In this document: piece by piece, positions 22,063-35,857 of the stretch
How positions within the stretch are numbered: the stretch's first letter is position 1
Layout: each line of letters starts with the position of its first letter
DNA from: Candidatus Saganbacteria bacterium
Lineage (GTDB): Bacteria > Margulisbacteria > WOR-1 > O2-12-FULL-45-9
Reading direction: 5' to 3'
Length of the DNA stretch: 35,857 nt
NCBI GenBank assembly: GCA_016219705.1
Contig: JACRKQ010000062.1
Span: 1-35,857, forward strand
Made by a program: the position numbers and the translations under genes
Notes under the pieces: generated by a model
The model's database searches: none
What the model was told of the DNA's origin: nothing
The model's input: only the letters and a program-made list of their open reading frames with translations

Positions 22063-23138
22063 TAGACAATCAATCGCGTACGGGGGAATAATTTTTTATT
22101 ATGAGCCTGCTGGCAGTACCAAAAAGAGGCCCAGAGATTTTTGGTCGAATAATAGTTTTGGGCGAGACAAAACCCCAGACAGCGGTTTTTCATGACGCAA
22201 TCATGGCAAACCCCTTCGAGGTCTTTGGGTAATCCATCACGGATCTTATTTAACATTGGATTATTTTGCCAAACATCGGCCAATTTGTCTTTCGCCGCAT
22301 CGCCAAAGTTAAATTCCGGCACTGTTTCGCCAATGCCGCAGAGCGCGTAGTGTCCGTTGCTTAAAACTCCAATAATGCCAAAAATGCCGCAGGTGCCGCA
22401 ACCGACGGCATTTTCCTTGCCAAAGATCCTCCCCAATGGCCGGAAAGCGACCGGATGGCTGTAGATCAATTTTATCTTGACCTGTTTAGCCAGGGTGTTT
22501 TCAATCCAGGCGCCAAGCTCGACTAATTCTTCCAGGGATAAAGTCTCGTCATTTTCGTGCATCTCTTTACCGCGGGCGGTTGGTTGGATCAAGTTAAATT
22601 TGACCGACCCGGCGCCATTTTTCTCGGCCAACTTGACAACATCTTCTATCTGATCTTTATTACGCCGCATGATCGACATGATGACCTGGGGCTTAAAACC
22701 GGCTGTCACTAAATTTCTGACGCCAGTCCATGCCGCTGCAAAACTTCCGGGGACCCGCCGTACCCATTCGTGGGTGGCGGCGTCCGCCCCGTCGACGCTG
22801 ACCGAAACAAAGGCCCCTTTGGCCGTCTTCATCTTTTGCGCCAATTCTGCTGTGCAGAGAACGCCATTGGTTTCAACCGTCAAATTTAATTTATTGACAA
22901 TAATGTAATCAAGAATAGCCTTGATGTCGGGATGGAGGAGTGGCTCTCCGCCGGTTAATTTAACCCCGGTTAAACCTAACGGTTTTGCCTGCTCAATAAT
23001 TGACTTAAACAAATCAAGCGGCAGAGAAGCAAAAACGTGCTGACCGTTCTGGAATTTCGGCTGGATCCAGCAGTGCCGGCAAAAGAGATTACACCCTTCG
23101 GTCAGGTAGAAATAGATACAGTTTAATTTTGGTGGCAT
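22062..23138 (-). CDS. Radical SAM / SPASM-domain peptide-modifying enzyme, copy 1
   Basis: The CNLFCRHC motif matches CxxxCxxC. The C-terminal Cys cluster (CGTCG...C...CHDCVMKNRCLGFC) is typical of SPASM auxiliary clusters. Confidence 0.85.
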   Translation of the reverse strand: MPPKLNCIYFYLTEGCNLFCRHCWIQPKFQNGQHVFASLPLDLFKSIIEQAKPLGLTGVKLTGGEPLLHPDIKAILDYIIVNKLNLTVETNGVLCTAELAQKMKTAKGAFVSVSVDGADAATHEWVRRVPGSFAAAWTGVRNLVTAGFKPQVIMSIMRRNKDQIEDVVKLAEKNGAGSVKFNLIQPTARGKEMHENDETLSLEELVELGAWIENTLAKQVKIKLIYSHPVAFRPLGRIFGKENAVGCGTCGIFGIIGVLSNGHYALCGIGETVPEFNFGDAAKDKLADVWQNNPMLNKIRDGLPKDLEGVCHDCVMKNRCLGFCLAQNYYSTKNLWASFWYCQQAHNKKLFPRTRLIV

Positions 23139-23599: not shown

Positions 23600-24715
23600 A
23601 TGAGCTCTTTTGTCTTACTTGGCGTCAATAGTTTTAACCCCGCTCTCTGCGACGGCGTTTCCAACAGCATCCTGGAGCTGATGGCTTTTTTGAAAAATAA
23701 AGGCCACCAAGTAAAAATAATTAATTATCTGACAGGAGAACCATACCGTCAGTTTATCTACAAGCAATTCAATAAAAATTCAACGAATTGGCAGGATGTC
23801 GGTTATCAGCTTACGGTCTCCGGCCTTGAAGTTGTGATGCGGCTTTTGCCTGACCGGGAAAAAGCTTCTCAATCTCAAGCGGTCAAACTAATTATGCGGG
23901 AGATAAAAGATTTACAGATAGATTTTGTTTTGACGATCGATAATTGCTTCTCCGCCCTTTTAGTCGCGCATTTGCTGAACATTCCCGGGGCCCATTGGTT
24001 TCATTCGGAAGCATACGTTAAAGAATTTCGCAACAAACCCTATTATCTAATGATGCTAAAAAATCGACAGGTATTGGCAACTTCACAGTATATCCAAGCC
24101 CGCATCAAAGCTTGTCTAGATCTGAATTCAATTGTCTGGTATCCGATCATTGACTTTAACCGCTGCCAAACCACAACCCAGACGACCACGGCTAATAATC
24201 TCGGTTTTTATTCCGGCGGGCCGCATAAAGGGGACGAGCTCGTGAATTACTTGATTGGACAGATGCCAGAGTACAATTTTATTACCGCGGGAAGATTGTT
24301 TCAAAGTATTTTTAAGACGGCTCCAAAAAACCTGGAAATATTAGGCGATGTGGCTGATATTAAAACTTTTTACCAAAAGATAAAATTATTGCTTGTCCCC
24401 TCTTTGGTCCCCGAAGGTTTTGGCCGGGTCATTGTGGAGGCGGCCGCCAATGGCATTCCGACTATTGCCAATAACGTCGGCGGGATTCCCGAAGCGCTGG
24501 GACAAAGCGGCCTATTGGTTGATGTTGAAAATATCAAACAGCCAAATATGCCTTTGTTGGTAAATAGATATCAAAGCATAATCGAACAGCTCTGCAACAA
24601 TAAAACAGATTATGATCTCTGTCAACAGCAAGCTTTAGCGCAAGCAAAAAAATATAAATTTTTACAGGAGCAGATGAATAATGAAAACTATCGCCTTATT
24701 ACTGGTAAAAAATGA
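23600..24715 (+). CDS. Glycosyltransferase, GT-B fold (family 1/4-like)
   Basis: The C-terminal motif EGFGRVIVEAAANGIPTIANNVGGIPE is typical of GT1/GT4 nucleotide-sugar binding. Confidence 0.75.
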   Translation: MSSFVLLGVNSFNPALCDGVSNSILELMAFLKNKGHQVKIINYLTGEPYRQFIYKQFNKNSTNWQDVGYQLTVSGLEVVMRLLPDREKASQSQAVKLIMREIKDLQIDFVLTIDNCFSALLVAHLLNIPGAHWFHSEAYVKEFRNKPYYLMMLKNRQVLATSQYIQARIKACLDLNSIVWYPIIDFNRCQTTTQTTTANNLGFYSGGPHKGDELVNYLIGQMPEYNFITAGRLFQSIFKTAPKNLEILGDVADIKTFYQKIKLLLVPSLVPEGFGRVIVEAAANGIPTIANNVGGIPEALGQSGLLVDVENIKQPNMPLLVNRYQSIIEQLCNNKTDYDLCQQQALAQAKKYKFLQEQMNNENYRLITGKK

Positions 24716-25637
24716 AGGTTGGATCTTGCCGACCACGCTACCTCAACTGAATAAATTTGTTGACGAAATCCTCGTCCTTGATACCAGCTCAACAGATAAT
24801 TCGCTAGCTATTTTAAAACACCTTAACATCTCTTTTCGACAGAAGAAATATGACACGCCGATAATTGACAATTCTGTCTGGCGGACAGAATTGCTGGATT
24901 GGGGACGCAGCCGCGGCGGGACCCACTTTGTCTGCCTGGACGCAGACGAAGCTTTTACTTCTCATCTCCTCCCGCATTTTAATGAATGGTTAAGCCGGCT
25001 GGAGCCTGGGGAAAAATTAATGCTTGATTGGCTGACCACCTGGAAAAGTCCGACCAAAATCAGAGTTGATAATTCCATTTGGAAAAAGATTCCCAAAGAT
25101 TTTATTTTTCGCGATCAAGCCGGCTTGCAGTTTGACGGGCAAACAATGCATGAGAACAGAACTCCAGGAAGTGGTAAGGCTAAATATGTGCCTCGCGAAA
25201 GAGGGGCGGTTTGGCATTTCCAATTTGCCGCTTTTGCCAGGTTTCAAATGAAGCAGGCTTTTTATCGAGTTAAGGAATTAAATGATAAAGGCCAGGCGAT
25301 GGATAATTTTAAATTAATCGACAGGATCAATAATTTTTACTCGATAACTTTGGATAATAGCGCCGCCCAGTGCGCAGATGCGCCAAAAAATTGGTACAGC
25401 GGCCTGCAAAATCTGGATAATATAAAAAATGCGCCGATGGGCTGGTTTTTACCGGCCATACTTGATTATTTCGCGCAAAAAGGGCTTGAGTATTTTGAGC
25501 CGCTGCAGATTTGGCACATTTCAGACCTTGAGGCCGAGTTTAGGCAAAAAATTGGCCGCGGTCCGAGATCGCTGTCACTGCCGCCTAAGCCGCGGATTGT
25601 CTCTTCTTCATGTCTTATGGGAGCTGATTCCTGGTAG
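24681..25637 (+). CDS. Putative glycosyltransferase, GT-A/family-2-like
   Basis: N-terminal IALLLVKNEG...ILVLDTSSTDNS and a later CLDADE motif. Confidence 0.5.
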   Translation: MKTIALLLVKNEGWILPTTLPQLNKFVDEILVLDTSSTDNSLAILKHLNISFRQKKYDTPIIDNSVWRTELLDWGRSRGGTHFVCLDADEAFTSHLLPHFNEWLSRLEPGEKLMLDWLTTWKSPTKIRVDNSIWKKIPKDFIFRDQAGLQFDGQTMHENRTPGSGKAKYVPRERGAVWHFQFAAFARFQMKQAFYRVKELNDKGQAMDNFKLIDRINNFYSITLDNSAAQCADAPKNWYSGLQNLDNIKNAPMGWFLPAILDYFAQKGLEYFEPLQIWHISDLEAEFRQKIGRGPRSLSLPPKPRIVSSSCLMGADSW

Positions 25638-26336
25638 TTGGTATTGTTCAATGATGGCAGCGAAAGCGCTTTTTTCCCGCTCAAAAATTTCTGTAAATTT
25701 TTCTTTGTCCAGGGTCAACTTAATAGTTGTATTGTGTTGATGCCAAATGTAATGGGCCAGGTCGATAACTGTCCTCTGGCCATTTTTCCTGGCCATCTGG
25801 TAGATAAAATCGTCGCCAAAGAACAGTTTTATTGGCGCGGGGATATTTTGCCATTCTGATCGCCGGCCAAAAATAAACCAGCCAATCCGTTCAAATTTTA
25901 ATTTATGTTCCGCGCCTAAATCTTGGAGATTAGGAGGATGATTTTGTCCTTTAAACAATCTGCTATACAAATCTGGGTGAAGATTATCCAGGCTTCTAAA
26001 AGTGACAAGCCCGATAGTCGGGTCTTGAATAATCTTCTCGCCTTTGCTTATAACCCGATCCCAAATTAAGCAATCATCGTTCAGCAGCAGGTAATAATCG
26101 GTTGTGGCCTGTTTAAGTCCCAAATTCCAGCTCTCATTAACATTAAAACGTTGATTAAAATGCGTTACTTTTAATCTGGGAGAGGAGCAATATTTTTTGC
26201 ATTCATTATCAAGGGTATTATCAATAATATGAATATAGCAATTTTGAGTCAGCAGCAAGTCCAGACTTTTCTCCAACATTTGCGGCGCCTGATTTAGACT
26301 GGGGATGATAACTGTGGTGTTTATCGTTTTAGGCAT
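25608..26336 (-). CDS. Glycosyltransferase family 2-like, short (242 aa)
   Basis: VIIPSLNQ...IIDNTLDN and LLLNDDCLIW (DxD-like) motifs. Overlaps the 3' end of the HprK-like copy 2. Confidence 0.6.
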   Translation of the reverse strand: MPKTINTTVIIPSLNQAPQMLEKSLDLLLTQNCYIHIIDNTLDNECKKYCSSPRLKVTHFNQRFNVNESWNLGLKQATTDYYLLLNDDCLIWDRVISKGEKIIQDPTIGLVTFRSLDNLHPDLYSRLFKGQNHPPNLQDLGAEHKLKFERIGWFIFGRRSEWQNIPAPIKLFFGDDFIYQMARKNGQRTVIDLAHYIWHQHNTTIKLTLDKEKFTEIFEREKSAFAAIIEQYQLPGISSHKT

Positions 26337-27238
26337 GTACTACTAAATACATTTTTTGTTAATTCATAATTGTTGATCGCCACCTCCATCTTATTCCAAA
26401 ATCGGCCGGTTAAGGTAAAATACAGGCGATGACAGGGAAGAGTACGAGTTAAGTTATAGGCATTATTGAATATTTTTAATTTCATCTTTGTAATTTCTTT
26501 TTTTGGAAAGCCGCTTAAATTTCGATGAAATATTTGCATCGCCCCATTATAAACAGCACCGATAGTAGTATTGTGACGTAATGATTCCACTCCATCTTCC
26601 ATCGCTTGTTTAAGAAAAAAAAATCCTGCTAGCGGATAAGCTTTTTCCACTGCCCAAGTTTTTTGATCAACATTCTCCCTGCAAAAATTACTAAAAGTTG
26701 GTAAGGGGTGTACCCAATATTGAGAGCCATGCTTAACAATTAGTGTTTCGTCATCAGCCAACGCTTGCCAAGGGGAGGGAATTCTTTGACAACAGGTCGA
26801 TTTCCCAGTGCCAGCAATAGCGGGGAGCAAATAAGCTTTGCTCTCTTTAATCACCATCCCCGCATGAAATGGCAGTCCGTCGGCATTAATCATCTCCTTA
26901 TATATATAAGTCAAAAGAAAGGATAAACAGTGTATCTCCATATGGCTATTTGGAGATGGGTCAAAACCAACTATTAAATGCGGCTCCTGGGGATGATCCA
27001 AAATCTTCACAGTCCCAAAATCTCGTACCCGCCAGTCGGGAGAAAAAAACTTCATTATTTTTTGATGGAATAGTTTTTCATTATTCAAAGAATAGAAATA
27101 TATTTTAGTATGATGAGAAATCGGAGCAACAATCAGCTGCATAATTGCGGCTAGTTTTTTTAACAATGCTTTGGCTTCCTTGCCAACGGCAACTAACTCC
27201 CACTTATGTCCATCAATCAAACGTAAAAGATAAGACAT
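26321..27238 (-). CDS. HPr-kinase/phosphorylase-like P-loop protein, copy 2
   Basis: P-loop LPAIAGTGKSTCCQRIPSPW. Collinear similarity to copy 1 throughout (LLRL...GxxWE, HAGMVIKESKAYLL, WVHPLPTFSNF). Starts 6 nt after precursor 1. Confidence 0.65.
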   Translation of the reverse strand: MSYLLRLIDGHKWELVAVGKEAKALLKKLAAIMQLIVAPISHHTKIYFYSLNNEKLFHQKIMKFFSPDWRVRDFGTVKILDHPQEPHLIVGFDPSPNSHMEIHCLSFLLTYIYKEMINADGLPFHAGMVIKESKAYLLPAIAGTGKSTCCQRIPSPWQALADDETLIVKHGSQYWVHPLPTFSNFCRENVDQKTWAVEKAYPLAGFFFLKQAMEDGVESLRHNTTIGAVYNGAMQIFHRNLSGFPKKEITKMKLKIFNNAYNLTRTLPCHRLYFTLTGRFWNKMEVAINNYELTKNVFSSTCLKR

Positions 27239-27244
27239 TAACCG

Positions 27245-27463
27245 TTATGAAGCGGTGCCGCCAGCAGAACAGCTACCTCCATTCCCTCCCTCGTTACATG
27301 CATAATTACTTAAACCGATGCCGCAAGACGAGAGAGGAGTCGAAGCTGATGTCCCGGTGACACAGCGATTTGTAGCGCTAGCCCCAGGACTACACTCTGC
27401 TGCAAATACTGAAACATTAAAAGAATCTTCTAAACATGGCTTCTCATACTTTATCTTTTCCAT
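27245..27463 (-). CDS. Precursor peptide 1, 72 aa. The leader carries the motif KIKYEKP. The core is Gly/Ser/Thr/Ala-rich with 6 Cys.
   Basis: MEKIKYEKPCLEDSFNVSVFAAECSPGASATNRCVTGTSASTPLSSCGIGLSNYACNEGGNGGSCSAGGTAS. A strong RBS AAGGGGG sits 8 nt upstream of the ATG. Confidence 0.7.
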   Translation of the reverse strand: MEKIKYEKPCLEDSFNVSVFAAECSPGASATNRCVTGTSASTPLSSCGIGLSNYACNEGGNGGSCSAGGTAS

Positions 27464-27493
27464 TTTTTCTACCCCCTTATTATTTTTCCCTTT

Positions 27494-27802
27494 TTACCCC
27501 ACCGGTACTTCGACTTTCGTCAAGCGGCTTTCAACACCATCCAGCCGCCGATCCTGCTCCCGATCTTTCCCAACTGCCAAAGTCCTGTCCTCTCGCGCTT
27601 TGACTAGCTCGTCCATCACACCGTCTAATTTATTCAAAACATCATCTTTATGCTGTTTGCTCTCTTCCCGCAATTGCTTCATTTCTCCTCTCATCTCATT
27701 CTTAAACTGCGCTAAATCTTCCTTCGTTGCAAAGTTTTTCAAATCTTCCTTCGTTGCGAAAACTGTCTTTAATTTAGTGATATCCTTATCCGTAATTGCC
27801 AT
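27494..27802 (-). CDS. Hypothetical charged coiled-coil protein, 102 aa
   Basis: Highly charged helical sequence with a duplicated FATKEDL motif. RBS AGGTGA. Lies between rSAM copy 2 and precursor 1. Confidence 0.4.
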   Translation of the reverse strand: MAITDKDITKLKTVFATKEDLKNFATKEDLAQFKNEMRGEMKQLREESKQHKDDVLNKLDGVMDELVKAREDRTLAVGKDREQDRRLDGVESRLTKVEVPVG

Positions 27803-27840
27803 TTTTTCACCTCTACAAAATCATTTTACCTAGATATCTA

Positions 27841-27870
27841 ATTATCGCAAATTTACCGAAAACTTGTCAA
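27841..27870 (-). promoter_or_regulatory. Sigma70-like promoter inside the cluster: TTGACA, 18-nt spacer, GATAAT
   Basis: On the minus strand, TTGACA is the complement of 27865-27870 and GATAAT the complement of 27841-27846. It lies upstream of the 102-aa gene and precursor 1. Confidence 0.4.
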
Positions 27871-27878
27871 CAACAAAC

Positions 27879-28997
27879 TCATGGCGCTGTCGCCACCAAG
27901 TTTTCGTCGGGCAAAACGCCCCCCTGGGACAGGAATTTTTTCAGGCAGGCATCGGGGCTGGGGCCGTATATTTCCCCCGTCAAGGTGTAGGAGAGCGCCG
28001 GGCAGCCGCCGCGGCAATAAGAAATATATTCGCAAGCACGGCAATCTGCAAATCTGTCGAGCGGAATTTCTCGCCGCTGCCTGAATTTAATCAATTCTGG
28101 GTGGTTAAGCCAGATGTCTTTTAGGTTCTCTTGATTTATCCGGCCCAGTTCAACGTCGTTGATCTGCGCGCAAGGAACGATAACCCCATCCGCCCGCACC
28201 GCCAATTTGCTAAAAACACCGCCGCAGCTGGTTAACAAACCGCAACCTCCTTCTCCTTCTCGCCCTTCTCGTTGAGCTTTTACCATTTTTAACCAGAATT
28301 TTGCTTCTGCCAGTGGACCAGCGGCGGCCGAAATACGATTACCATATTTTTGAATCAATTTTAACAAAGAGTTCATGGCAACTGTTCGTTCCGCCGGTGT
28401 CAACTGGATCTCATCAGAATTTTTCTGGCACAAACCAAGATAGGAGGCGGAATTGGTGGAAAATCCCGGCAAACCTAGGTCTTCAATAAGTAATTTGGCG
28501 ACATTTTCGAGATCATGGACATTATAGCGGTTGATGGTAACACGAACGGTTGTTGATAATTTGTATTTTTGCAGCTGCTTGACGGCGGCGACAGCTTTAA
28601 GGAATGTCCCTTGGCCGCGGCTGGCCTCGTGGATAATGGGCTGGGAACCGTCGATGGAGACCTGGACACTGTTGCAGCGTTTAGTCGCCGCTAAAAACTC
28701 CGCCCACTCTTCGGTAATTAAGGTGCCATTACTTAGGAGGCTAAAGCGCAGCCTGTTTTTGATAATGCCGTTGATAATCTCTTTTAAGTCAGAGCGAAAG
28801 AAGGGCTCGCCACCGGCCAGGCAGATATTAAAAACGCCGATTTTAGTTGCTTCCTCAAAGAACTTCAGCCATTCGGCCGCTGGAAGATCCTTTTCCACAC
28901 TGCCTGTACTGGTAAAATGGCTGCAATACTTACAGCGCAGGTTGCAATTGTTGGTAATATTAATGTCTACCCCTGACGGGGCGCTAATAAGTTTCAT
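27879..28997 (-). CDS. Radical SAM / SPASM-domain peptide-modifying enzyme, copy 2
   Basis: CNLRCKYC matches CxxxCxxC. C-terminal Cys-rich SPASM region (CGLLTSCGG...CAQ...CRACEYISYCRGGC). Lies 10 nt downstream of precursor 2. Confidence 0.85.
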   Translation of the reverse strand: MKLISAPSGVDINITNNCNLRCKYCSHFTSTGSVEKDLPAAEWLKFFEEATKIGVFNICLAGGEPFFRSDLKEIINGIIKNRLRFSLLSNGTLITEEWAEFLAATKRCNSVQVSIDGSQPIIHEASRGQGTFLKAVAAVKQLQKYKLSTTVRVTINRYNVHDLENVAKLLIEDLGLPGFSTNSASYLGLCQKNSDEIQLTPAERTVAMNSLLKLIQKYGNRISAAAGPLAEAKFWLKMVKAQREGREGEGGCGLLTSCGGVFSKLAVRADGVIVPCAQINDVELGRINQENLKDIWLNHPELIKFRQRREIPLDRFADCRACEYISYCRGGCPALSYTLTGEIYGPSPDACLKKFLSQGGVLPDENLVATAP

Positions 28998-29006
28998 AAG
29001 ACTCTA

Positions 29007-29210
29007 TCATCCTACTCCAGTTCCCGAATTGCATAAAGGCGGCGCACCTGGGGCGGAAGTCCCGCTAATACACCCATTAGCGCCAGTGGCCGATGTCCCA
29101 GTATTGCAATTATCAGTTGCAGAACTTCCTGTGCTACTACAGGGAGCCGCCTGCACTTCTCCAGAAAAATCTACCAGCTCTGGTTTCTCATACTTGATCT
29201 TTTTTTGCAA
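29007..29210 (-). CDS. Precursor peptide 2, about 67 aa from a TTG start. Same leader and core motifs as precursor 1. The core has 4 Cys.
   Basis: (M/L)QKKIKYEKPELVDFSGEVQAAPCSSTGSSATDNCNTGTSATGANGCISGTSAPGAPPLCNSGTGVG. RBS GAGGGG sits 6 nt before the TTG at 29210. The ORF track extends to 29420, but no ATG lies near the conserved leader. Confidence 0.6.
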   Translation of the reverse strand: MQKKIKYEKPELVDFSGEVQAAPCSSTGSSATDNCNTGTSATGANGCISGTSAPGAPPLCNSGTGVG

Positions 29211-29238
29211 ATTTATCCCCTCATTGTCAACAAACAAT

Positions 29239-29267
29239 TTTACACCAAAATAGTTATCTTGTATAAT
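29239..29267 (+). promoter_or_regulatory. Sigma70-like promoter for mtnP: TTTACA, 17-nt spacer, TG-TATAAT. It gives a near-leaderless transcript.
   Basis: TTTACA at 29239-29244. TGTATAAT at 29260-29267. The first in-frame ATG overlaps the -10, so the start is more likely the ATG at 29275. Confidence 0.4.
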
Positions 29268-29274
29268 GGTAATC

Positions 29275-30009: not shown

Positions 30010-30536
30010 TGCCGATCAAATCACGGATCAGAACAGTGCCGCATTGGCCGAAGAAAGGAATCATGTTCCGGGATATCACGACGCTATTAAAGGATCCAGT
30101 CGGACTAAAAATCTGCATCGATGATTTTTTGAACCGCTACAAAGACAATAAAATTGATATTGTCGTCGGTATTGATTCGCGCGGCTTTATTCTCGGCGGC
30201 GCCCTGGCCTATTTATTAAATAAAGGGTTTGTCCCGGTCCGTAAAAAGGGGAAACTGCCGGCGGAGACAGAGAAAGAGGAATATACGCTGGAATATGGCA
30301 CAGATGTTATTGAGATCCACAAAGACGCCATTGAGCAGGGGCAAAAAGTTCTCATCATTGATGATTTGATCGCCACCGGCGGGACCGCTCTGGCCGCCGC
30401 GAAATTAGTGCAGAAACTCGGCGGTGAGATCGTCGAATTAGCTTTTATGGTTGATTTGCCTGATTTAGGCGGCAGGAAAAAATTGGCAGCGGCCGGTTAC
30501 AAAGTATACGCGCAAACGGAATTCGCCGGGGAATGA
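30009..30536 (+). CDS. apt: Adenine phosphoribosyltransferase
   Basis: PRPP-binding motif [13 protein letters not shown]. 175 aa. Confidence 0.85.
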
Positions 30537-31531
30537 AAGTCAAAGGTCAACATTATCGGACCATTTGGTTTGCCCCGCCTGTTGTCTTCTTAATCGAACA
30601 AAATCTCCTCCCTTTTTCTTTTCAAATCGTTAAATGCGCTGATTTTCAGGCGACTTGCCGGGCAATTAAAAATATGACCGTGCGCGGGGCTGGAGCGATT
30701 GGCGCGGCGGCGGGGTTTGCCATGGCGCAAGCTTTATTAGCCAAAGTTGATCCGCTGAAAGCCAAAAAAGAGATCGAAGCGACGCGGCCAACCGCGCAGA
30801 ATCTGTTTTACGCGGCAGAGCGGGTCTTCCAGGCCGCCGATCCTGTCGCTTGCGCCCAAAAGATCGCCGACGAAGACGCCGCAAGCTGCCAGAGAATCGG
30901 CGAGCTTGGCAGTCAATTAATTATAGACGGAATGAGAATAGAAACACATTGCAACGCCGGCTGGCTGGCGTTTGTCGATTATGGCACGGCTCTTGCGCCC
31001 ATTTACGCCGCCAGAGATCAGGGCAAAAATGTTTTTGTTTATGTCGATGAAACACGGCCGCGCGGCCAGGGAGCGCGCCTGACCGCCTGGGAATTATTCA
31101 ATGAAAAAATTCCGCACGCGATTATTCCCGATAACGCCGGCGCCTCCTTAATGTCGCAGGGGAAAGTTGATATGGTAATCGTCGGCGCTGACCGCATCGC
31201 CGCCAATGGCGACGTTGCCAATAAGATCGGCACTCTGGAAAAAGCGCTTGCCGCCCATGAATATGGCATCCCCTTTTACGTCGCGGCGCCAACGGCAACC
31301 ATTGATTTGCAGTGCGCTTCCGGCCAGGACATCCCGATTGAAGAAAGAAGTGAAAAGGAAGTTACTCACCAGTCGGGTATTAATGAAGAAGGCCAAAATT
31401 CCACTATCCTGGTCTGTTCCCCCGGATCAACGGCGTATAATCCGGCATTTGATGTTACTCCCGCCAAATACATCACAAAAATCATCACGGAGAGAGGGGT
31501 TGTGGCTGCTCCAGCAGCTCTTTTTCTTTGA
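30533..31531 (+). CDS. mtnA: S-methyl-5-thioribose-1-phosphate isomerase (eIF-2B-like family)
   Basis: [18 protein letters not shown] motif of the MtnA/eIF2B family. 4-nt overlap with apt. Confidence 0.8.
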
Positions 31532-31763
31532 GAGAATTGATAAACTCTTCCACATCTGCGGCGACGTTTTCCGGCACATTGTCGCAAGATTCTTTTACTC
31601 TGGCGATAATTTCTGCAACCTCGTTTTTACCGTCTAATAATTTGGTCACAAGCACCGAAGTCGGGTTGAGTCCAAAAGTATTCCCCGTATCCGGATCAAA
31701 CAATACCCCCCATTCATCCAGTTCCTCCCGCAAAACAATCGAATCAAGCAATTTTGGCTGCAT
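31485..31763 (-). CDS. PqqD-family protein (RiPP recognition element-like peptide chaperone)
   Basis: 92 aa. Motifs VLFDPDTGNTFGLNPTSVLVTKLLDGKNEVAEIIARV...[14 protein letters not shown] match the PqqD pattern (LN-T---I---LDG---V-EI...V-EFL--L---GLI). Confidence 0.7.
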   Translation of the reverse strand: MQPKLLDSIVLREELDEWGVLFDPDTGNTFGLNPTSVLVTKLLDGKNEVAEIIARVKESCDNVPENVAADVEEFINSLKEKELLEQPQPLSP

Positions 31764-31801: not shown

Positions 31802-32302
31802 TCATGGCCTTGTCAACAACGAATTCAGGCGATAATTGAGCCGGCCGGTCATATGCCGGCAGGCGCGGCGCAGTTTTTTATTAAGCAGGAGTTTTAAGGC
31901 CGGGGCAAGACAGCGATAAAAATAATGAGACATAATGTTATAGAAAGCGCGCTGATCCTGCCGTGTGAACATCTGCCGCCTTCCCCGAAAAATCTCTTTC
32001 ACCCGCCCGATGATCTGCTCGCTTTTGATGCTGCTGGCCGTCAGATTATTATCCCCTTTTTCCAGGAAACTTATTTCCCGGCTATTTTTGTTAACGCGAA
32101 CAATGCGATGGCAGATCAATTTCCCATACCCCTGAAAAACAACGATATCCCCGGCTTTGATGGCTTGAGGCAGGACATTTTCCAGAAAAATAACGTCCCC
32201 TTCTTTAAGGGTCGGCGCCATGCTCCGGCCGATAAGTTTGGAGACTTTAAATTTCTTTAATTTCTGCAGCGGGGATAATTGGTTAATGTCTATATTATTC
32301 AT
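31802..32302 (-). CDS. S24/S26-family (signal-peptidase-I-like) serine peptidase and putative leader peptidase
   Basis: GRSMAPTLKEGDVIFL matches the S26 Ser box (SMxPTL). GDIVVF follows downstream. A start at the internal Met gives an ATGA overlap with the upstream gene. The ORF track extends to 32368. Confidence 0.6.
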   Translation of the reverse strand: MNNIDINQLSPLQKLKKFKVSKLIGRSMAPTLKEGDVIFLENVLPQAIKAGDIVVFQGYGKLICHRIVRVNKNSREISFLEKGDNNLTASSIKSEQIIGRVKEIFRGRRQMFTRQDQRAFYNIMSHYFYRCLAPALKLLLNKKLRRACRHMTGRLNYRLNSLLTRP

Positions 32303-33417
32303 TGCCTTTTTTTTGCAAAAAAACTGCCGTAAAACACCATCATAGGATACCATAGATAATGCCGCCAAGTAATCTCGTCAGCAGAGCGCAGGTTAAAAGC
32401 TGCAACAACCTTATCGCGATGAGGGATGAAATAAGGCCCGATAACGGGAAACAATTCTTGCGGTGAATCTAAGATCAATAAGCGCCAAAAATACCTGCGC
32501 CCTTTATTACCGGATATTATCAGTTTATACGGAAATTTTGTGATGAGAAAACGGTTAATAAAAGAAGTTTTTGGCAGCCTTATTAATAATTTTTCAGGGG
32601 AATCAACTTTCAATAACTCGCGCCTTAATCTCAAACATAATAAAAAAGCCTTGGTCATATTATAGCTTTTGATTAGACCAATAAATTTATCCCAATCAAT
32701 TTCCTGCTCATATCTTAGGATAATTTCCGAAACGTCGACCAATAACTTTAAAGAGGCGAAGGACTTATAAAAGAACATGATCAGAGCATGCAGTAAGAGG
32801 ATCTCGGGTGGAAACATTTTATATTGGAAACCGGCAATATTTTCTGATCGAATATCCCGCCATAAAATCTCCGGCGGGATGCGACAGCGATTGAATGGCG
32901 CCAGATTCCAATGGATCTCCACTCCGCCAATTTCTGGGTGCGTTAAAACTAAATGCTGGCTTTGTTCCAGAAAATATTCCTCTGACAAAGACTCAATACT
33001 TTTCCAGCCGGAATTAATCAATAAATCCCGGGTCTTAATCAGCTCGTTTTCCCTGACCAGGAAATCAATATCGCTGGAATGGCGTAAAGCAATATTGCCA
33101 TAAATTAATTCGGCCCAGACGGGCCCTTTCAGCGCTATAAAGTCGATTCCTTCTTCTGCCAATAATCTAAAAATTTTCTTCTGTCTGGCGTCCAAAGTTA
33201 GGTTATGGATGAGATTATAACGGTAAATTGCCTGTAATGAGGCTTTAGCCGCCGGGGGGATTGATTTATCTCTAAGGTTTAAATATAATAGCGGCGCCAC
33301 CTGGTTGACCAGCGCCAGATCGATTAAATGATCCCAATCGATTTTCCCGTTTAAGAGAGTGTTAATTGCAGAAGTATCTGCTCTGGTTTTAGCGCAAGCA
33401 AAAAGCAATTGGTCCAT
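32299..33417 (-). CDS. Putative nucleotidyltransferase-family protein of the type often found with PqqD-like genes
   Basis: 372 aa. The GPVWAELIYGNIALRHSSDIDFLV region resembles a minimal nucleotidyltransferase fold motif (G[SG]...D.D). Confidence 0.45.
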   Translation of the reverse strand: MDQLLFACAKTRADTSAINTLLNGKIDWDHLIDLALVNQVAPLLYLNLRDKSIPPAAKASLQAIYRYNLIHNLTLDARQKKIFRLLAEEGIDFIALKGPVWAELIYGNIALRHSSDIDFLVRENELIKTRDLLINSGWKSIESLSEEYFLEQSQHLVLTHPEIGGVEIHWNLAPFNRCRIPPEILWRDIRSENIAGFQYKMFPPEILLLHALIMFFYKSFASLKLLVDVSEIILRYEQEIDWDKFIGLIKSYNMTKAFLLCLRLRRELLKVDSPEKLLIRLPKTSFINRFLITKFPYKLIISGNKGRRYFWRLLILDSPQELFPVIGPYFIPHRDKVVAAFNLRSADEITWRHYLWYPMMVFYGSFFAKKRQ

Positions 33418-33422
33418 TCTGC

Positions 33423-35857
33423 TTATTTCGCCGCTGCTTTATAAAGCAGGTAGACAGTGACAACTGATGTTGTCAATTGGGTGATTGCTGTCATTGCCGC
33501 CCCTGTCGTTTGCCAGAATTGGTTCCAATCAAAAGGTTTTTCGTAACGAGCTACTTCACCTGGTTTAGTCGGCACCAGAATGGTATCGCCGGGAGCGATC
33601 GTTAACAGCCAGCGGTCTTTTTCCGTCCGCCCGTTAGCCCGCAGGACAGTAACATTGTTAAGATCAGCGTATTTATTGCCGCCGCCACAAAGATTAATAT
33701 AATAATTGGCTGATTTTCCCTGTTCGTAAAGCAGGCTGGCGCCGGAGGAATAAACATCGCCGATAACGGTGACCGAATTTATCTGGTCGGGGATTGTTAA
33801 AGTGTCGCCATTTTGCAGGACGATGTCCCATTCATTACCCGGCCGGATTTTATTTAAATCAAGCAGGATACGGCCGGGAATTTCCCAATTAATTTTATTT
33901 AAATTGAAATCATAATAGCGTTTGATTTGTTCCGTGCGGTAAAGATTTTCTTCACTGGACAGCCCCATTGGGATGCTCAATAATTCCCGCTCTTCCCGTG
34001 TCTGCAGATCGCGCTGCAGCTGGGTTGCTTCGCTTGTCAGCTGTTGTTTTAACGATTCTCTGGTAAAAACCGCTCCCTCTAAGAAGGCCTTTCCTGTAAA
34101 ACCGCCGGCCCGGGTAACAACTGAACTTAATCTTTCGTTGGGGAAAAGGACATATTTGCCGGGATATAAAAAATTCCCTTGCAAGGTGACTGTGCTGTTG
34201 ACCCGATAATCAGGCAGCCGTCTTATGATTAAATAATCATCTTTTTCCAACAAAAGATCCTCGGTTTTGTCTTTATTTTCTAAAACTAACCGCAAATCAA
34301 TGTTATAAAGATCTATTTTGGCATAGCTTATGGCCCGATAGAGCTCCGCTTTTTCCAGATAAGCGCTCTTTTTAACCCCGCCAGCCTGGAACACCAGGTC
34401 GCTGACCCGCATATTAGCCGTGAGTGGATAGGTTTTATCGCCATCGTTAACCTCACCGGCAATATAAACTTTAGACTCACCCTCAATCCCTTTCTTAGAA
34501 AAAACCCGAACCCGGTCAAATTCCTTTAAAAGAGGATTATTACCCAAATCTCCTTGTTTCGTCTTATTTAAGTCGATAGCCAAGACTTCTGGATGCATAT
34601 CTGGAGGGGCAAGGCGAAAGATTTGGGCGCGGCCAAGATAAGCGTCAGAGGAGAGCCCTTGGGCCTTGTTTAATAAATCTTCTAGCCGCATCTCGCTGGT
34701 TAATTCATACCGCCCGGATCTAGTCACACTCCCTTCTAAGTAAACAACTTTCCTGATGGTAGCATCAATAGAGAAAATGGCAATCGAATCAAGATTCTCC
34801 AGGTAAACCGGATTAACATTTTTAACCTTGAGATAATCGGCATAATTTACATCTTGCGCTCTCTGTTCAATATTTTTGCCGCGTCGTTCAATTTGAATTC
34901 GTTGCAGATAAGAGGTGGGAGTAATGCCGCCGGCTAATTCTACAAAATCACTAAGTTCTGTCGTCCCTTTTAATTCATAAATCGCCGGGCGGTTGACATT
35001 GCCGCTGATAGCCACGACCTTGCCAATCAGCGGCACGCGGATCACATCACCGCTCTGGAGTAAAAGATCCCCCGCTTTGCTGCCGGATAGAATAAATTTA
35101 TACAAATCAACCGTTTTAATTTTCTGACCGTTACGCACGAGTTCGATATTGCGCAATGTCCCGGCGCGCGTCGGGCCGCCGCCCAGAAAAACCGCGTCAT
35201 ATAAAGTGGTATTGGCCAGGGTGGTGTAAGCGCCCGGCTTATTTATTTCACCCGTCAAGTAAATTTTAATTGCGCCTATTTCTTTAAGGGTCAAATCAAC
35301 ATTAAAATCGGTGACAAAGACAATGGCCAGTCGCTGCATTAAGAGCTCTTTTGCTTCGGCCAAAGTAAGCCCGGCTATTGTGACCACGCCAACTTTGGGG
35401 ATGACGACAGAGCCGCGATCATCAACGATCATGGCGAAAGAATCATTAACACTACCCCAGATGGTGACCAATAAATTATCCCCGGGATTAATGCGGTAAT
35501 TGGGTCCAATGGGAAGACTCGATATCAGGGCGAATTTTTGCCCGACAGTTCGCTGAAAGACATCATAGCCGAATTGACGCAGGGTTCCCAACACTTGTTG
35601 AGTCGGTCTCATTTCATCTTTTATTTTACTAATGAAACCTTTTTCGATAGAAGAAAATGCCTCTTTAGGCTGTTCAGCCGGGCTATTGTCAACGGGAGAA
35701 ACGCTTGACTGGCCTTCAGTTGGTTTGGCCGCCGAAGCGCTACTTGGTGACGATGGTTGAGTGGGCGCGGTTGGCGGTGACACAGTGGGATCAACTATCT
35801 CCTTTATTTTACTTTTTTCTTCCGGCGTTAAATTTTGCAATTTTTGCTTTTGCTGGG
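33423..35857 (-). CDS. Polysaccharide-export-type (Wza/KpsD-like) periplasmic protein with about six SLBB repeats and a C-terminal TM helix. The N-terminus lies outside the window.
   Basis: Poly_export-like motif YRINPGDNLLVTIWG. Repeated SLBB-like units (...KPGAYTTLANTTLYDAVFLGGGPT; ...RPAIYELKGTTELSDFVELAGGIT; ...). The frame is open to the window edge. Confidence 0.7.
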   Translation of the reverse strand, partial: QQKQKLQNLTPEEKSKIKEIVDPTVSPPTAPTQPSSPSSASAAKPTEGQSSVSPVDNSPAEQPKEAFSSIEKGFISKIKDEMRPTQQVLGTLRQFGYDVFQRTVGQKFALISSLPIGPNYRINPGDNLLVTIWGSVNDSFAMIVDDRGSVVIPKVGVVTIAGLTLAEAKELLMQRLAIVFVTDFNVDLTLKEIGAIKIYLTGEINKPGAYTTLANTTLYDAVFLGGGPTRAGTLRNIELVRNGQKIKTVDLYKFILSGSKAGDLLLQSGDVIRVPLIGKVVAISGNVNRPAIYELKGTTELSDFVELAGGITPTSYLQRIQIERRGKNIEQRAQDVNYADYLKVKNVNPVYLENLDSIAIFSIDATIRKVVYLEGSVTRSGRYELTSEMRLEDLLNKAQGLSSDAYLGRAQIFRLAPPDMHPEVLAIDLNKTKQGDLGNNPLLKEFDRVRVFSKKGIEGESKVYIAGEVNDGDKTYPLTANMRVSDLVFQAGGVKKSAYLEKAELYRAISYAKIDLYNIDLRLVLENKDKTEDLLLEKDDYLIIRRLPDYRVNSTVTLQGNFLYPGKYVLFPNERLSSVVTRAGGFTGKAFLEGAVFTRESLKQQLTSEATQLQRDLQTREERELLSIPMGLSSEENLYRTEQIKRYYDFNLNKINWEIPGRILLDLNKIRPGNEWDIVLQNGDTLTIPDQINSVTVIGDVYSSGASLLYEQGKSANYYINLCGGGNKYADLNNVTVLRANGRTEKDRWLLTIAPGDTILVPTKPGEVARYEKPFDWNQFWQTTGAAMTAITQLTTSVVTVYLLYKAAAK

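What the first reader, a model, noticed from the sequence alone, without database searches (positions are those of the whole stretch)
27245..29210. Two paralogous Cys-rich, Gly/Ser/Thr-rich precursor peptides with a shared KIKYEKP leader motif
Both small ORFs carry the leader motif KIKYEKP-x-L-x-D-(S)F and then the element AA-x-C-S-x-G-x-S-A-T-[DN]-x-C-x-TGTSA-[ST]. The cores differ after that point. Copy 1 has 6 Cys and copy 2 has 4 Cys, in each case within about 50 residues. Each sits directly upstream of an enzyme gene (precursor 2 before rSAM-2, precursor 1 before HprK-like-2) and each has a strong RBS. A conserved leader plus a hypervariable low-complexity core with regularly spaced Cys is the signature of RiPP substrates. 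Ranthipeptides and sactipeptides have this kind of core. The very high Ser/Thr/Gly/Ala/Asn content is unusual and would give many acceptor sites for thioether, phospho or glycosyl modification. Copy 2 needs a TTG start to keep the conserved leader, because there is no in-frame ATG nearby. That is itself worth confirming.
Basis: seen in the sequence. Interest (0 to 1): 0.85.

Follow-up and report, generated by a model that had tools for sequence, protein, structure and literature searches.

The report
Two ScmA-type RiPP precursor peptides
The two small cysteine-rich genes are real precursor peptides of a catalogued but never characterised peptide-modification gene cluster (the SynChlorMet cassette), which here looks like recently described phosphopeptide machinery with two radical-SAM enzymes added.

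Summary
Two minus-strand ORFs (27245-27463, 72 aa, ATG; 29007-29210, 67 aa, TTG) share 60% identity over 42 residues (E 6e-11). Synonymous sites between them are saturated while the protein is conserved.

They are divergent members of the ScmA precursor family of the SynChlorMet (SCM) cassette. About 90 such peptides lie beside ScmC genes in 80 genomes. All carry a [Y/W]-E-K-P-x-L leader and a core of ~10-residue C-x-x-G-x-S-A units.

The window holds the whole cassette across 19.4-35.8 kb:
- ScmE and ScmF (radical SAM/SPASM)
- two ScmC copies (HprK/PEPCK-fold P-loop)
- ScmD (PqqD-type RRE)
- an NTP_transf_5 transferase
- an ABC exporter
- three glycosyltransferases

The leader is the YxxPxL RRE-binding motif of lasso peptides and of the linear polyphosphorylated peptides (LPP) described in 2026. 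The accessory genes match the LPP core set.

The most likely route is RRE-guided radical-SAM cross-linking at the Cys units, Ser phosphorylation with possible glycosylation, SpI cleavage near A21/A22, and export. The chemistry is inferred, not shown.

The TTG start of copy 2 is supported. Verdict: a new divergent member of a known, uncharacterised kind, of moderate interest.

The parts
27245..27463 (-). Precursor peptide 1 (ScmA-like, 72 aa, ATG). The leader is about residues 1-21 (27401-27463), with YEKPCL at 27431-27448. The core is about residues 22-72 (27248-27400), with five C-x-x-G units.
   Evidence: ORF. Paralogy. Family HMM hit E 2.5e-13. Canonical position directly upstream of ScmC.
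27472..27478 (-). Shine-Dalgarno site AAGGGGG, 8 nt before the ATG of precursor 1.
   Evidence: Read from the sequence.
29007..29210 (-). Precursor peptide 2 (ScmA-like, 67 aa, TTG start). The leader is about residues 1-21 (29148-29210), with YEKPEL at 29175-29192. The core is 29010-29147, with four Cys units.
   Evidence: E 1.4e-13. TIGR04252 ScmA scores 17.3 bits, E 0.0041. The start is placed by family comparison. NCBI annotates it as an 89-aa hypothetical protein from an upstream ATG.
29217..29222 (-). Shine-Dalgarno site GAGGGG, 6 nt before the TTG of precursor 2.
29237..29265 (-). Promoter-like site (TATACA-17-TAAAAT, 9/12) upstream of precursor 2. It lies downstream of the alternative ATG at 29276.
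   Evidence: This is a consensus match only.
27841..27870 (-). Promoter-like site (TTGACA-18-TG-GATAAT, 11/12) ahead of the unit formed by the 102-aa ORF, precursor 1 and ScmC-2. A terminator-like hairpin lies at 27881-27896, just after ScmE.
   Evidence: This is a consensus match only.
27879..28997 (-). ScmE, a radical SAM/SPASM enzyme with no fused RRE.
   Evidence: TIGR04250 scores 548.5 bits against a cut-off of 400. The Pfam Radical_SAM domain starts at residue 12, followed by SPASM. The nearest solved relatives are SkfB, PqqE and CteB.
26321..27238 (-). ScmC-2, an HprK/PEPCK-fold P-loop protein and putative peptide kinase.
   Evidence: TIGR04249 scores 214.8 bits against a cut-off of 125. 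The AF2 model has pLDDT 90.8. Foldseek hits PEPCK and HPr kinase. The H...AxxxxGKST...DDE motif is kept.
27494..27802 (-). A 102-aa coiled-coil ORF between ScmE and precursor 1. Whether it belongs to the system is uncertain.
   Evidence: No family hit and no homolog in the 80 SCM loci.
25608..26336 (-). GT2 glycosyltransferase, overlapping the end of ScmC-2.
   Evidence: Pfam Glycos_transf_2, E 3.4e-11.
24681..25637 (+). GT2-like protein with only weak family matches.
   Evidence: Pfam Glyco_tranf_2_4, E 1e-4, below its cut-off.
23600..24715 (+). GT4 glycosyltransferase, a recurrent accessory of SCM loci.
   Evidence: Pfam match. Homologs occur in SCM loci L019 (322 bits, Saganbacteria), L063, L068, L003 and L080.
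22062..23138 (-). ScmF, the second radical SAM/SPASM enzyme.
   Evidence: TIGR04251 scores 571.7 bits against a cut-off of 400.
21178..22062 (-). ScmC-1, the second HprK-fold P-loop protein, 42% identical to ScmC-2.
   Evidence: TIGR04249 scores 249.9 bits. Alignment.
19445..21211 (-). MsbA-like ABC exporter without a C39 peptidase domain.
   Evidence: The match to TIGR01193 starts at profile position 143 of 708.
31485..31763 (-). ScmD, a discrete PqqD-type RiPP recognition element.
   Evidence: TIGR04248 scores 89.5 bits against a cut-off of 100. Pfam PqqD, E 6e-16. The family profile's best PDB hit is LppB 9x8z, E 2.5e-7.
31802..32368 (-). Archaeal-type (SipW-like) signal peptidase I, the putative leader peptidase. 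Its start codon is uncertain.
   Evidence: TIGR02228 scores 73.6 bits against a cut-off of 51.85; SipW E 2e-10. Present in 63 of 80 loci.
32299..33417 (-). NTP_transf_5 nucleotidyltransferase-fold protein.
   Evidence: Pfam PF14907, E 1.7e-48. Present in 39 of 80 loci.
33423..35840 (-). Wza-like polysaccharide export protein (Poly_export plus SLBB repeats). It is adjacent to the cassette, but membership is uncertain.
   Evidence: Homologs occur near SCM genes in L060, L040 and L003.

Best explanation
The two ORFs encode ScmA-type precursor peptides of a complete but rearranged SynChlorMet (SCM) RiPP cluster in a Candidatus Saganbacteria genome.

Proposed route, with each step marked shown or inferred:
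1. Both peptides are translated from strong Shine-Dalgarno sites, copy 2 from TTG. This is inferred from the sequence and from family comparison.
2. The leader motif Y-E-K-P-x-L docks into the discrete PqqD-type RRE ScmD, as the YxxPxL motif does in lasso and LPP systems. This is inferred from homology; the contact residues are conserved.
3. ScmD presents the core to the two RRE-less radical SAM/SPASM enzymes ScmE and ScmF. These modify the periodic C-x-x-G-x-S-A decapeptide units, five in copy 1 and four in copy 2. The most likely chemistry is one Cys-derived thioether ring per unit. This is inferred, and the chemistry is unknown.
4. The HprK/PEPCK-fold P-loop proteins ScmC-1 and ScmC-2 phosphorylate Ser/Thr of the precursor. 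The NTP_transf_5 protein, and perhaps the GT4/GT2 enzymes, extend that phosphate with sugar. This is inferred by analogy with LppK, lasso kinases and PsmN.
5. The SipW-like signal peptidase removes the leader close to V19-x-A21|A22. That site places Tyr at -16 in copy 1, as in LppA. This is inferred.
6. The MsbA-like ABC transporter exports the product. This is inferred.
For: The ORFs are real:
- The paralogs are 60% identical, E 6e-11.
- pS is 0.825 against pN 0.288.

Family and synteny:
- An HMM built from the motif finds about 100 small ORFs in 80 ScmC loci from at least 10 phyla.
- 53 of the 91 leader-bearing peptides lie within 600 nt upstream of ScmC on the same strand, and 4 lie upstream of ScmE.
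- Leader consensus is [Y85/W15]-E-K-P100-x-L82. The first Cys falls at Tyr+17 to Tyr+20. Cys spacing has its mode at 10. Gly at Cys+3 occurs in 74-88% of units. The tail after the last Cys is 6-8 residues.
- A full HMMER scan of 1.84e9 representatives returns only such peptides, apart from one spurious hit.

Cassette genes in the window:
- ScmE 548 bits, ScmF 572 bits, ScmC 250 and 215 bits, all above cut-off.
- ScmD 89.5 bits and SpI 73.6 bits; NTP_transf_5 E 1.7e-48.
- Copy 2 matches ScmA TIGR04252 at E 0.0041.

ScmC:
- The model has pLDDT 90.8 and matches PEPCK and HPr kinase folds.
- It keeps H-x21-GKS-x16-DD, comparable with the lasso kinase BsfK motif H148...K169 S170...D186 D187 (PMC10368454).

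RRE:
- The ScmD profile's best solved relative is LppB 9x8z, E 2.5e-7, followed by lasso TbiB1.
- LppB leader-contact residues L32, N33, D70, F74 and M78 align with window ScmD L32, N33, D70, F74 and L78.

Precedents:
[quoted passage not shown] Their kinase polyphosphorylates core Ser3, and the SpI needs the RRE (PMC13381572).
- In pseudomycoidin the nucleotidyltransferase adds hexose to the phospho-Ser (PMC8498205).
Against: - No product has been observed for any SCM cluster. None of the seven searches aimed at the SCM names, TIGRFAM numbers or gene combination found an experimental paper.
- Both window peptides fall below the curated ScmA cut-off: copy 2 scores 17.3 bits against 35, and copy 1 has no hit.
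- ScmD is just below its cut-off (89.5 against 100).
- No Ser or Thr is strongly conserved across the family. The best are 35-36% Ser at Cys+4 and Cys+5 of the first unit. Only 12 of 91 peptides end in Ser. The kinase target therefore cannot be named.
- ScmC resembles PEPCK at least as much as HprK by fold, so its reaction need not be Ser phosphorylation.
- ScmF is closer to decarboxylase-type rSAM enzymes (AhbD, NirJ, BlsE, MftC) than to thioether synthases.
- 11 of 38 well-covered loci lack ScmE/F nearby.
- In this window the cassette is split by an unrelated MTAP-Apt-MtnA operon, so co-expression is not assured.
Confidence: 0.75

Rival explanations
1. The peptides are substrates only of the LPP-like module (kinase, NTP transferase, glycosyltransferases, SpI). 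They would mature as linear phospho- or glyco-peptides with free or disulfide-bonded Cys. ScmE and ScmF would serve another substrate or only some family members.
For: - ScmC, PqqD and SpI are the most constant neighbours: 32 of 38 loci have PqqD and 32 have SpI, against 27 of 38 with ScmE/F. Eleven loci lack ScmE/F within the flanks held, at least 6 kb on each side.
- Most precursors abut ScmC rather than an rSAM gene.
- In LPP, phosphorylation is the primary modification.
Against: - ScmE and ScmF co-occur with the peptides in 71% of well-covered loci, usually in the order ScmE-ScmF-precursor-ScmC.
- Both rSAM enzymes lack a fused RRE, and the ScmD gene usually sits directly upstream of ScmE.
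- Strictly periodic Cys is what Cys-targeting SPASM maturases act on (established knowledge of sacti- and ranthipeptides).
- Copy 2 is directly coupled to ScmE, with a 9-nt gap.
Confidence: 0.1
2. The peptides are precursors of a small redox cofactor or another non-exported product, in the manner of PQQ or mycofactocin, rather than of an exported cross-linked peptide.
For: - ScmF has second-tier matches to the mycofactocin maturase MftC (E 1.6e-35), AhbD and NirJ.
- A PqqD-type chaperone is present.
- The distance from the last Cys to the C-terminus is constant at 6-8 residues.
Against: - The cores vary widely in length (40-135 residues after the Tyr) and in Cys number (2-19), which does not suit a single cofactor.
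- An ABC exporter and a signal-peptidase-type leader protease are conserved.
- Many loci carry several different precursors.
Confidence: 0.05
3. They are unmodified small Cys-rich structural or secreted proteins (for example disulfide-stapled Gly/Ser/Thr-rich repeats) that merely lie next to the enzymes.
For: The regular 10-residue Cys/Gly/Ser/Thr repeats resemble small beta-solenoid repeat proteins. This is a resemblance recalled from memory and was not tested.
Against: - There is no signal peptide. The N-terminus is instead the YxxPxL RRE motif.
- Linkage to ScmC/E/F/D is tight across phyla.
- Translational coupling to the enzymes is seen in the 6-nt and 9-nt gaps.
Confidence: 0.04
4. They are lasso-peptide precursors.
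For: The YxxPxL leader, the PqqD-type RRE, the HprK-like protein, the NTP transferase and the ABC pump are all typical of paeninodin- and Bsf-type lasso clusters.
Against: - The window has no lasso cyclase (Asn-synthase-like C) and no B2 transglutaminase-type protease. Every other large ORF is accounted for.
- The cores are 46-51 residues long with periodic Cys, and no Gly1...Asp/Glu7-9 ring motif was seen by eye (not tested formally).
Confidence: 0.01
5. They are chance ORFs that are not expressed.
For: - Copy 1 is on record in the protein collection only from a Logan assembly, not from NCBI.
- Copy 2 lacks an ATG start.
Against: - Codon-level purifying selection between the paralogs.
- About 90 homologs in a conserved position.
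- Strong Shine-Dalgarno sites.
Confidence: 0.01

Closest known systems
ScmA (TIGR04252), the putative precursor of the SynChlorMet cassette (NCBIfam/TIGRFAMs; ScmC is also Pfam PF27840)
   Same: - A small Cys-rich peptide encoded next to ScmC, ScmE and ScmF.
- Copy 2 aligns to profile positions 1-47 of 49.
- The leader and the first repeat units are the same.
- NCBI already names the neighbouring gene in this contig 'SynChlorMet cassette protein ScmC'.
   Different: - Both copies score below the 35-bit cut-off (17.3 bits and no hit). So do most of the other cassette-linked peptides that were tested.
- There are two paralogs and two ScmC genes.
- Three glycosyltransferases are inserted.
- The cassette is split by an MTAP-Apt-MtnA operon.
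- The nearest ScmC homolog elsewhere is only 34-37% identical.
Linear polyphosphorylated peptides, LPP (Popov et al., Nat Commun 2026, PMC13381572)
   Same: [quoted passage not shown] - A location among glycosyltransferase and polysaccharide genes.
- Tyr at -16 if cleavage falls at A21|A22.
- The ScmD profile's best solved relative is LppB.
   Different: - LPP clusters have no radical SAM enzymes (none is mentioned).
- The LPP leader continues as HQxIxFETxxS, which is absent here.
- LPP cores are not Cys repeats.
- LPP is described as restricted to Bacillota, whereas SCM occurs in Saganbacteria, Desulfobacterota, Omnitrophota, Chlorobia, anammox bacteria and methanogens.
Phosphorylated lasso peptides (paeninodin, Bsf, pseudomycoidin)
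   Same: - A YxxPxL leader at about -17 to -12.
- A PqqD-type B1 RRE.
- An HPr-kinase homolog with the H...GxGKS...DD motif.
- A nucleotidyltransferase that glycosylates the phosphate.
- An ABC exporter.

   Different: - No macrolactam cyclase and no B2 protease in the window.
- A signal peptidase takes the place of B2.
- Two rSAM/SPASM enzymes are present.
- A C-terminal Ser, the target of the lasso kinases, occurs in copy 1 only and in 12 of 91 family members.
Ranthipeptides and sactipeptides (for example PapA/PapB freyrasin, SCIFF/CteB, SkfA/SkfB)
   Same: - An rSAM/SPASM maturase paired with a precursor that has regularly spaced Cys.
- ScmE's nearest solved relatives include SkfB and CteB, and it has a second-tier match to PapB.
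   Different: - ScmE and ScmF are far below those families' cut-offs (for example PapB 100.8 bits against 340).
- The leader type differs.
- Two rSAM enzymes are present together with kinase, NTase and SpI genes.
- The C-x-x-G-x-S-A repeat unit is not a described acceptor motif.
- The cross-link type is unknown.

Membership tests
SynChlorMet (SCM) cassette | ScmE and ScmF radical SAM/SPASM proteins score above the curated cut-offs. | tested here: met
   TIGR04250 scores 548.5 against 400. TIGR04251 scores 571.7 against 400.
SynChlorMet (SCM) cassette | An ScmC protein is present. | tested here: met
   TIGR04249 scores 249.9 and 214.8 against 125, so there are two copies. PF27840 is on record for this protein.
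SynChlorMet (SCM) cassette | The ScmD PqqD-family protein is present. | tested here: inconclusive
   TIGR04248 is the best hit but scores 89.5 against a cut-off of 100. Pfam PqqD is clearly met. The gene lies 2.3 kb from precursor 2, across an inserted operon.
ScmA precursor family (TIGR04252) | The peptide scores at or above the 35-bit curated cut-off. | tested here: not met
   Copy 2 scores 17.3 bits (E 0.0041) and copy 1 has no hit. Of nine other cassette-linked peptides tested, none reached the cut-off: five scored 16.7-28.2 bits and four had no ScmA hit. The model is therefore narrow.
ScmA precursor family (TIGR04252) | A small Cys-rich ORF lies adjacent to ScmC/E/F and shares their leader. 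| tested here: met
   The locally built family HMM gives E 2.5e-13 for copy 1 and 1.4e-13 for copy 2.
LPP (linear polyphosphorylated peptides) | The core gene set is present: SpI-like peptidase, discrete RRE, HprK-like kinase, NTP transferase and MsbA-like pump. | tested here: met
   for the window. For 38 well-covered loci. The gene set is defined in PMC13381572.
LPP (linear polyphosphorylated peptides) | The leader consensus is YxxPxVLxHQxIxFETxxS. | tested here: not met
   Only the YxxPx[L/V] part is present. The HQxIxFETxxS part is absent from both copies and from the family consensus.
LPP (linear polyphosphorylated peptides) | The product is linear, with no further core-modifying enzymes. 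| tested here: not met
   Two rSAM/SPASM genes are embedded in the cluster. The linearity of the product itself cannot be tested here.
LPP (linear polyphosphorylated peptides) | A core Ser is polyphosphorylated by the kinase. | not testable with these tools
   This needs mass spectrometry. The ATP-binding and catalytic motifs of both ScmC copies are intact.
Lasso peptides | A macrolactam cyclase (C) and a B2 protease are present. | tested here: not met
   Neither was found among the annotated ORFs of the window.
Lasso peptides | The leader carries YxxPxL and a PqqD-type RRE is present. | tested here: met
Ranthipeptides / sactipeptides | An rSAM/SPASM maturase of a characterised thioether-forming family (PapB, CteB/SCIFF, AlbA, SkfB) is present. 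| tested here: not met
   The matches to all of these are far below their cut-offs. Only general SPASM-family relatedness is seen.
Ranthipeptides / sactipeptides | Cys-derived thioether cross-links are present in the product. | not testable with these tools
   This needs MS/NMR of the modified peptide.

The most novel reading that the evidence does not exclude
SCM products are an undescribed RiPP class that combines radical-SAM cross-linking of a periodic C-x-x-G-x-S-A decapeptide scaffold with the Ser (poly)phosphorylation or phosphoglycosylation chemistry of LPP and paeninodin-type lasso peptides.

The RRE, HprK-like kinase, SpI and NTP-transferase module would then be an ancient portable unit spread across many bacterial and archaeal phyla. 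That differs from the LPP system, which its authors describe as restricted to Bacillota.

In Saganbacteria the GT4/GT2 enzymes and the Wza-like exporter might link the peptide to an exopolysaccharide.
Probability: 0.3. Interest if true: 0.75.

Novelty: new member of a known kind. Interest (0 to 1): 0.5.

Why it matters
The SynChlorMet cassette is catalogued in NCBIfam/TIGRFAMs. The literature searches here found no paper describing its product, its chemistry, or a precursor model that works broadly.

This window, together with the 80 related loci, gives four things:
- A usable definition of the precursor family: the leader [Y/W]EKPxL, a first Cys 17-20 residues after the Tyr, decapeptide C-x-x-G units, and a tail of 6-8 residues.
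- A testable link between SCM and the LPP and lasso-kinase systems described in 2016-2026. This predicts phosphorylation and RRE-guided signal-peptidase cleavage.
- Evidence that this accessory module occurs outside Bacillota, including in archaea.
- Two concrete, short substrates with their cognate enzymes, ready for heterologous reconstitution.

If the combined thioether and phospho(glyco) chemistry is confirmed, it would be a new RiPP scaffold.

Tried and rejected
- The word-index protein search with the two-peptide alignment found only the two window peptides themselves. No close orthologs exist, so no ortholog dN/dS was possible. Paralog codon analysis was used instead.
- Seven literature searches aimed at the SCM names, TIGRFAM numbers and gene combination found no paper on the SCM cassette. 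One search was swamped by single-cell 'scM...' terms. One search did turn up the LPP paper. The Haft and Basu paper that I expected to describe such cassettes was not held under the id I tried.
- The 2050-aa hit P0110 in the full scan is an immunoglobulin heavy-chain-like repeat that matches the leader region by chance. It was rejected.
- The weak SunS (S-glycosyltransferase) match of the GT2-like protein (E 0.0014, 17.5 bits against 350) is generic GT-A similarity. It is not evidence for S-glycosylation.
- I considered that the MTAP-Apt-MtnA operon belongs to the cluster as salvage of the rSAM by-product 5'-deoxyadenosine. No other SCM locus carries these genes, so I treat it as a neighbour.
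- The two small ORFs at 23142-23521 and the 102-aa coiled-coil ORF have no family match and no homolog in other SCM loci. They are not assigned to the system.
- C-terminal Ser as the kinase target, as in lasso peptides: copy 1 ends in Ser, but copy 2 does not, and only 12 of 91 family members do. It is not a family rule.
- Double-glycine/C39 leader processing was rejected because the ABC exporter lacks the peptidase domain.

Full report
**1. What is in the sequence**

Both small ORFs exist, but they are on the minus strand.
- Copy 1 (27245-27463, ATG, 72 aa) ends 6 nt before a 305-aa gene.
- Copy 2 (29007-29210) ends 9 nt before a 372-aa gene.
- BLASTP of the two peptides gives 25/42 identical residues, E 6e-11.
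- The leader K-I-K-Y-E-K-P-x-L-x-D and the element AA-x-C-S-(x)-x-G-x-S-A-T-[DN]-x-C-x-T-G-T-S-A-[ST] are reproduced, with one gap.
- The Cys counts are 6 and 4, as reported.

Codon analysis shows the similarity is protein-level. Over 39 aligned codons pS is 0.825 and pN is 0.288, and 15 of the 25 identical residues use different codons. Both ORFs have strong Shine-Dalgarno sites: AAGGGGG with an 8-nt spacer and GAGGGG with a 6-nt spacer.

**2. The neighbourhood is a complete SynChlorMet (SCM) cassette**

NCBIfam assigns the flanking genes as follows:
- ScmE, TIGR04250, 548 bits against a cut-off of 400, at 27879-28997.
- ScmF, TIGR04251, 572 bits against 400, at 22062-23138.
- Two ScmC copies, TIGR04249, 250 and 215 bits against 125, at 21178-22062 and 26321-27238.

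An MsbA-like ABC exporter without a C39 domain lies at 19445-21211. Three glycosyltransferases lie in between.

An oppositely oriented MTAP-Apt-MtnA operon occupies 29266-31531. Beyond it the window also holds:
- a PqqD-type protein whose best hit is ScmD (TIGR04248, 89.5 bits against 100), at 31485-31763;
- an NTP_transf_5 protein (PF14907, E 1.7e-48);
- a Wza-like polysaccharide exporter.

The rest of the window is housekeeping, and there is no lasso cyclase or B2 protease. The contig is from a Candidatus Saganbacteria MAG. NCBI already names ScmC there, calls copy 2 an 89-aa hypothetical protein, and seems not to call copy 1.

**3. The peptides belong to a large family**

Copy 2 matches the curated precursor model ScmA (TIGR04252) only weakly, at 17.3 bits against a cut-off of 35. 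Copy 1 has no match.

I fetched 80 loci through an ScmC alignment. They come from Desulfobacterota, Omnitrophota, Saganbacteria, Margulisiibacteriota, Chlorobia, anammox Brocadiae, Aminicenantes, Methanocella and Methanothrix.
- A regex search and then an HMM search recover about 100 small ORFs with the same design.
- Of the 91 that carry a leader, 53 lie within 600 nt upstream of ScmC on the same strand, as copy 1 does. Four lie upstream of ScmE, as copy 2 does.
- The usual gene order is ScmD-ScmE-ScmF-precursor-ScmC-SpI-...-ABC-NTP_transf_5.
- Most of these peptides also fall below the ScmA cut-off, so the curated model is narrow.

A full HMMER scan of 1.84 billion representatives with the two-peptide profile gives 47 hits at E <= 1e-3. 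All the small hits I inspected (22 of the 44) are peptides of this kind. One hit is a spurious immunoglobulin repeat. None is close to the window peptides.

**4. Anatomy of the family and of the two copies**

- Leader: [Y85%/W15%]-E-K-P(100%)-x-L(82%)-[IV]-x-L(70%).
- The first core Cys lies 17-20 residues after the Tyr and is preceded by [GA]-[GA]-x.
- The core is a tandem of ~10-residue units, C-x-[TSNP]-G-[SGT]-[SG]-[AD]-x-x-x. Cys spacing is 10 (157 cases), 11 (82) or 9 (50). Gly at +3 occurs in 74-88% of units.
- The peptide ends 6-8 residues after the last Cys.

Copy 1 has five such units and copy 2 has four. Eight of the nine core Cys have Gly at +3, with P about 1.6e-5. The cores that look divergent therefore keep the family register.

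Start codons in the family lie mostly 2-7 codons before the Tyr. Copy 2 has TTG at -6. Its next ATG is at -28, has no Shine-Dalgarno site, and lies inside MTAP on the other strand. A promoter-like site lies between that ATG and the TTG. The TTG start is therefore supported.

**5. How it most likely works**

The leader is the YxxPxL motif that lasso-peptide and LPP leaders use to bind discrete PqqD-type RREs (PMC10368454; PMC13381572).
- The ScmD family profile finds LppB (9x8z) as its best solved relative, E 2.5e-7. Lasso TbiB1 follows, ahead of PqqD itself.
- The LppB residues reported to hold the leader (L32, N33, D70, F74, M78) align with L32, N33, D70, F74 and L78 of the window protein.
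- ScmE and ScmF start directly with the radical-SAM domain, so they need such a separate RRE.

ScmC-2 folds with pLDDT 90.8 into a PEPCK/HPr-kinase-type P-loop protein. Both copies keep H...[AG]xxxxGKST...DDE, which is comparable with the motif of the lasso precursor kinases.

The set SpI + RRE + HprK-like kinase + NTP transferase + MsbA-like pump is exactly the core set of the linear polyphosphorylated peptides. In that system:
- the kinase polyphosphorylates core Ser3;
- the SpI removes the leader in an RRE-dependent way;
- the clusters sit among polysaccharide and glycosyltransferase genes.

In pseudomycoidin the homologous-type transferase adds hexose to the phosphate.

From this I infer the route: RRE docking, rSAM modification of the Cys units (probably thioether rings), ScmC phosphorylation with possible sugar extension, SpI cleavage, and export.

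Cleavage at V19-x-A21|A22 is conserved in both copies. In copy 1 it puts Tyr at -16 and Pro at -13, as in LppA.

Only the gene content, the homologies and the motif conservation are shown here. Every chemical step is inferred.

**6. Points that do not fit neatly**

- No Ser or Thr is strongly conserved, and a C-terminal Ser is not a family rule.
- ScmF is nearer to decarboxylase-type rSAM enzymes than to thioether synthases.
- Eleven of 38 well-covered loci have no ScmE/F nearby.
- ScmC carries an unexplained invariant Cys pair straight after the P-loop (GKSTCC).
- The window cluster is rearranged. It has two ScmC copies that are 42% identical, two precursors, three glycosyltransferases and a foreign operon.
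- Another Saganbacteria contig (L019) repeats the pattern of two ScmC types, a GT4 and two precursors. This suggests a lineage-specific glycosylating variant.

**7. Comparison and novelty**

The finding is a genuine pair of RiPP precursors. It is a new, divergent member of the ScmA/SCM kind, which is catalogued but which no literature search here found to be experimentally characterised.
- It works like an LPP or kinase-type lasso system for recognition, phosphorylation and leader removal.
- It works like a sacti- or ranthipeptide system for the Cys-rich core.
- It fails defining features of each of those families (see the membership table).

The link between SCM and LPP, and the occurrence of that module outside Bacillota and in archaea, appear in none of the papers I could search.

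Interest is moderate, 0.5. The reading is solid and gives a well-defined target for reconstitution, but the kind itself is already in the databases and the chemistry remains unknown.

Noticed in passing
window 29266-31531 (+): An MTAP (S-methyl-5'-thioadenosine phosphorylase), adenine phosphoribosyltransferase and MtnA (methylthioribose-1-P isomerase) operon sits between ScmD and precursor 2/ScmE. These enzymes could salvage 5'-deoxyadenosine, the by-product of the radical SAM enzymes. None of the 80 other SCM loci carries them.
   Followed up: partly
window 27494-27802 (-): A 102-aa highly charged coiled-coil ORF lies between ScmE and precursor 1. It is preceded by the best promoter-like site of the region (27841-27870, 11/12 with an extended -10 TG). 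It has no family match and no homolog in other SCM loci.
   Followed up: partly
window 23142-23521 (-): Two overlapping small ORFs (62 and 64 aa, with a 4-nt overlap) lie directly upstream of ScmF. Both are called as genes in the independent Logan assembly. They have no Pfam or NCBIfam match and no homolog in other SCM loci. They could be a toxin-antitoxin-like pair or cluster-specific accessory proteins.
   Followed up: partly
window 33423-35840 (-): An 805-aa Wza-like polysaccharide export protein (Poly_export plus four SLBB repeats) lies immediately upstream of the NTP_transf_5 gene. Homologs also occur next to SCM genes in L060 (236 bits), L040 and L003. This echoes the report that LPP clusters sit within capsular polysaccharide loci.
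   Followed up: partly
window 26321-27238 and 21178-22062 (-); alignment A2: All ScmC proteins carry a conserved Cys pair straight after the Walker A lysine (GKSTCC-x-R), plus an invariant H-P-[FL]-P-T-[WF]-S motif. Neither was seen in the HPr kinase sequences that aligned, and their role is unknown.
   Followed up: no
window 29007-29276 (-): The public annotation of copy 2 (89 aa, HZB07_05390) starts at an ATG 22 codons upstream of the TTG, inside the MTAP coding region on the other strand and without a Shine-Dalgarno site. Copy 1 is on record only from a Logan read assembly, so it is probably not annotated in the NCBI record.
   Followed up: yes
L026, L011, L015, L049, L075 (whole loci): Some SCM loci are precursor farms. 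L026 has about 8 precursors with 3-4 ScmC genes. L011, from an anammox bacterium, has 6 precursors. Some precursors are long (over 120 residues after the Tyr) with up to 19 Cys, including CC pairs. Multiple ScmC copies tend to occur with multiple precursors, but not one-to-one.
   Followed up: partly
L019 1-3474: A second Saganbacteria contig repeats the window's unusual set: an ScmC-2-type protein, an ScmC-1-type protein, a close GT4 homolog (322 bits) and two precursors. There the precursors are on the opposite strand to the ScmC genes.
   Followed up: partly
L006, L012, L014, L025, L027, L037, L053, L059, L071, L076, L079: Eleven of the 38 loci with at least 6 kb on both sides of ScmC have no ScmE/ScmF within the flanks held. 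Most keep PqqD, SpI or NTP_transf_5, and sometimes Cys-repeat precursors. These may be rSAM-less, LPP-like relatives outside Bacillota, or their rSAM genes may lie elsewhere. L014's are about 11 kb away, in L042.
   Followed up: partly
P0110 (2050 aa, protein library): The leader half of the profile matched eight repeats of an immunoglobulin heavy-chain constant-region-like sequence (GYSKPALQILRPSEDQLG). This is a chance resemblance to the YxxPxL leader and is not related.
   Followed up: yes
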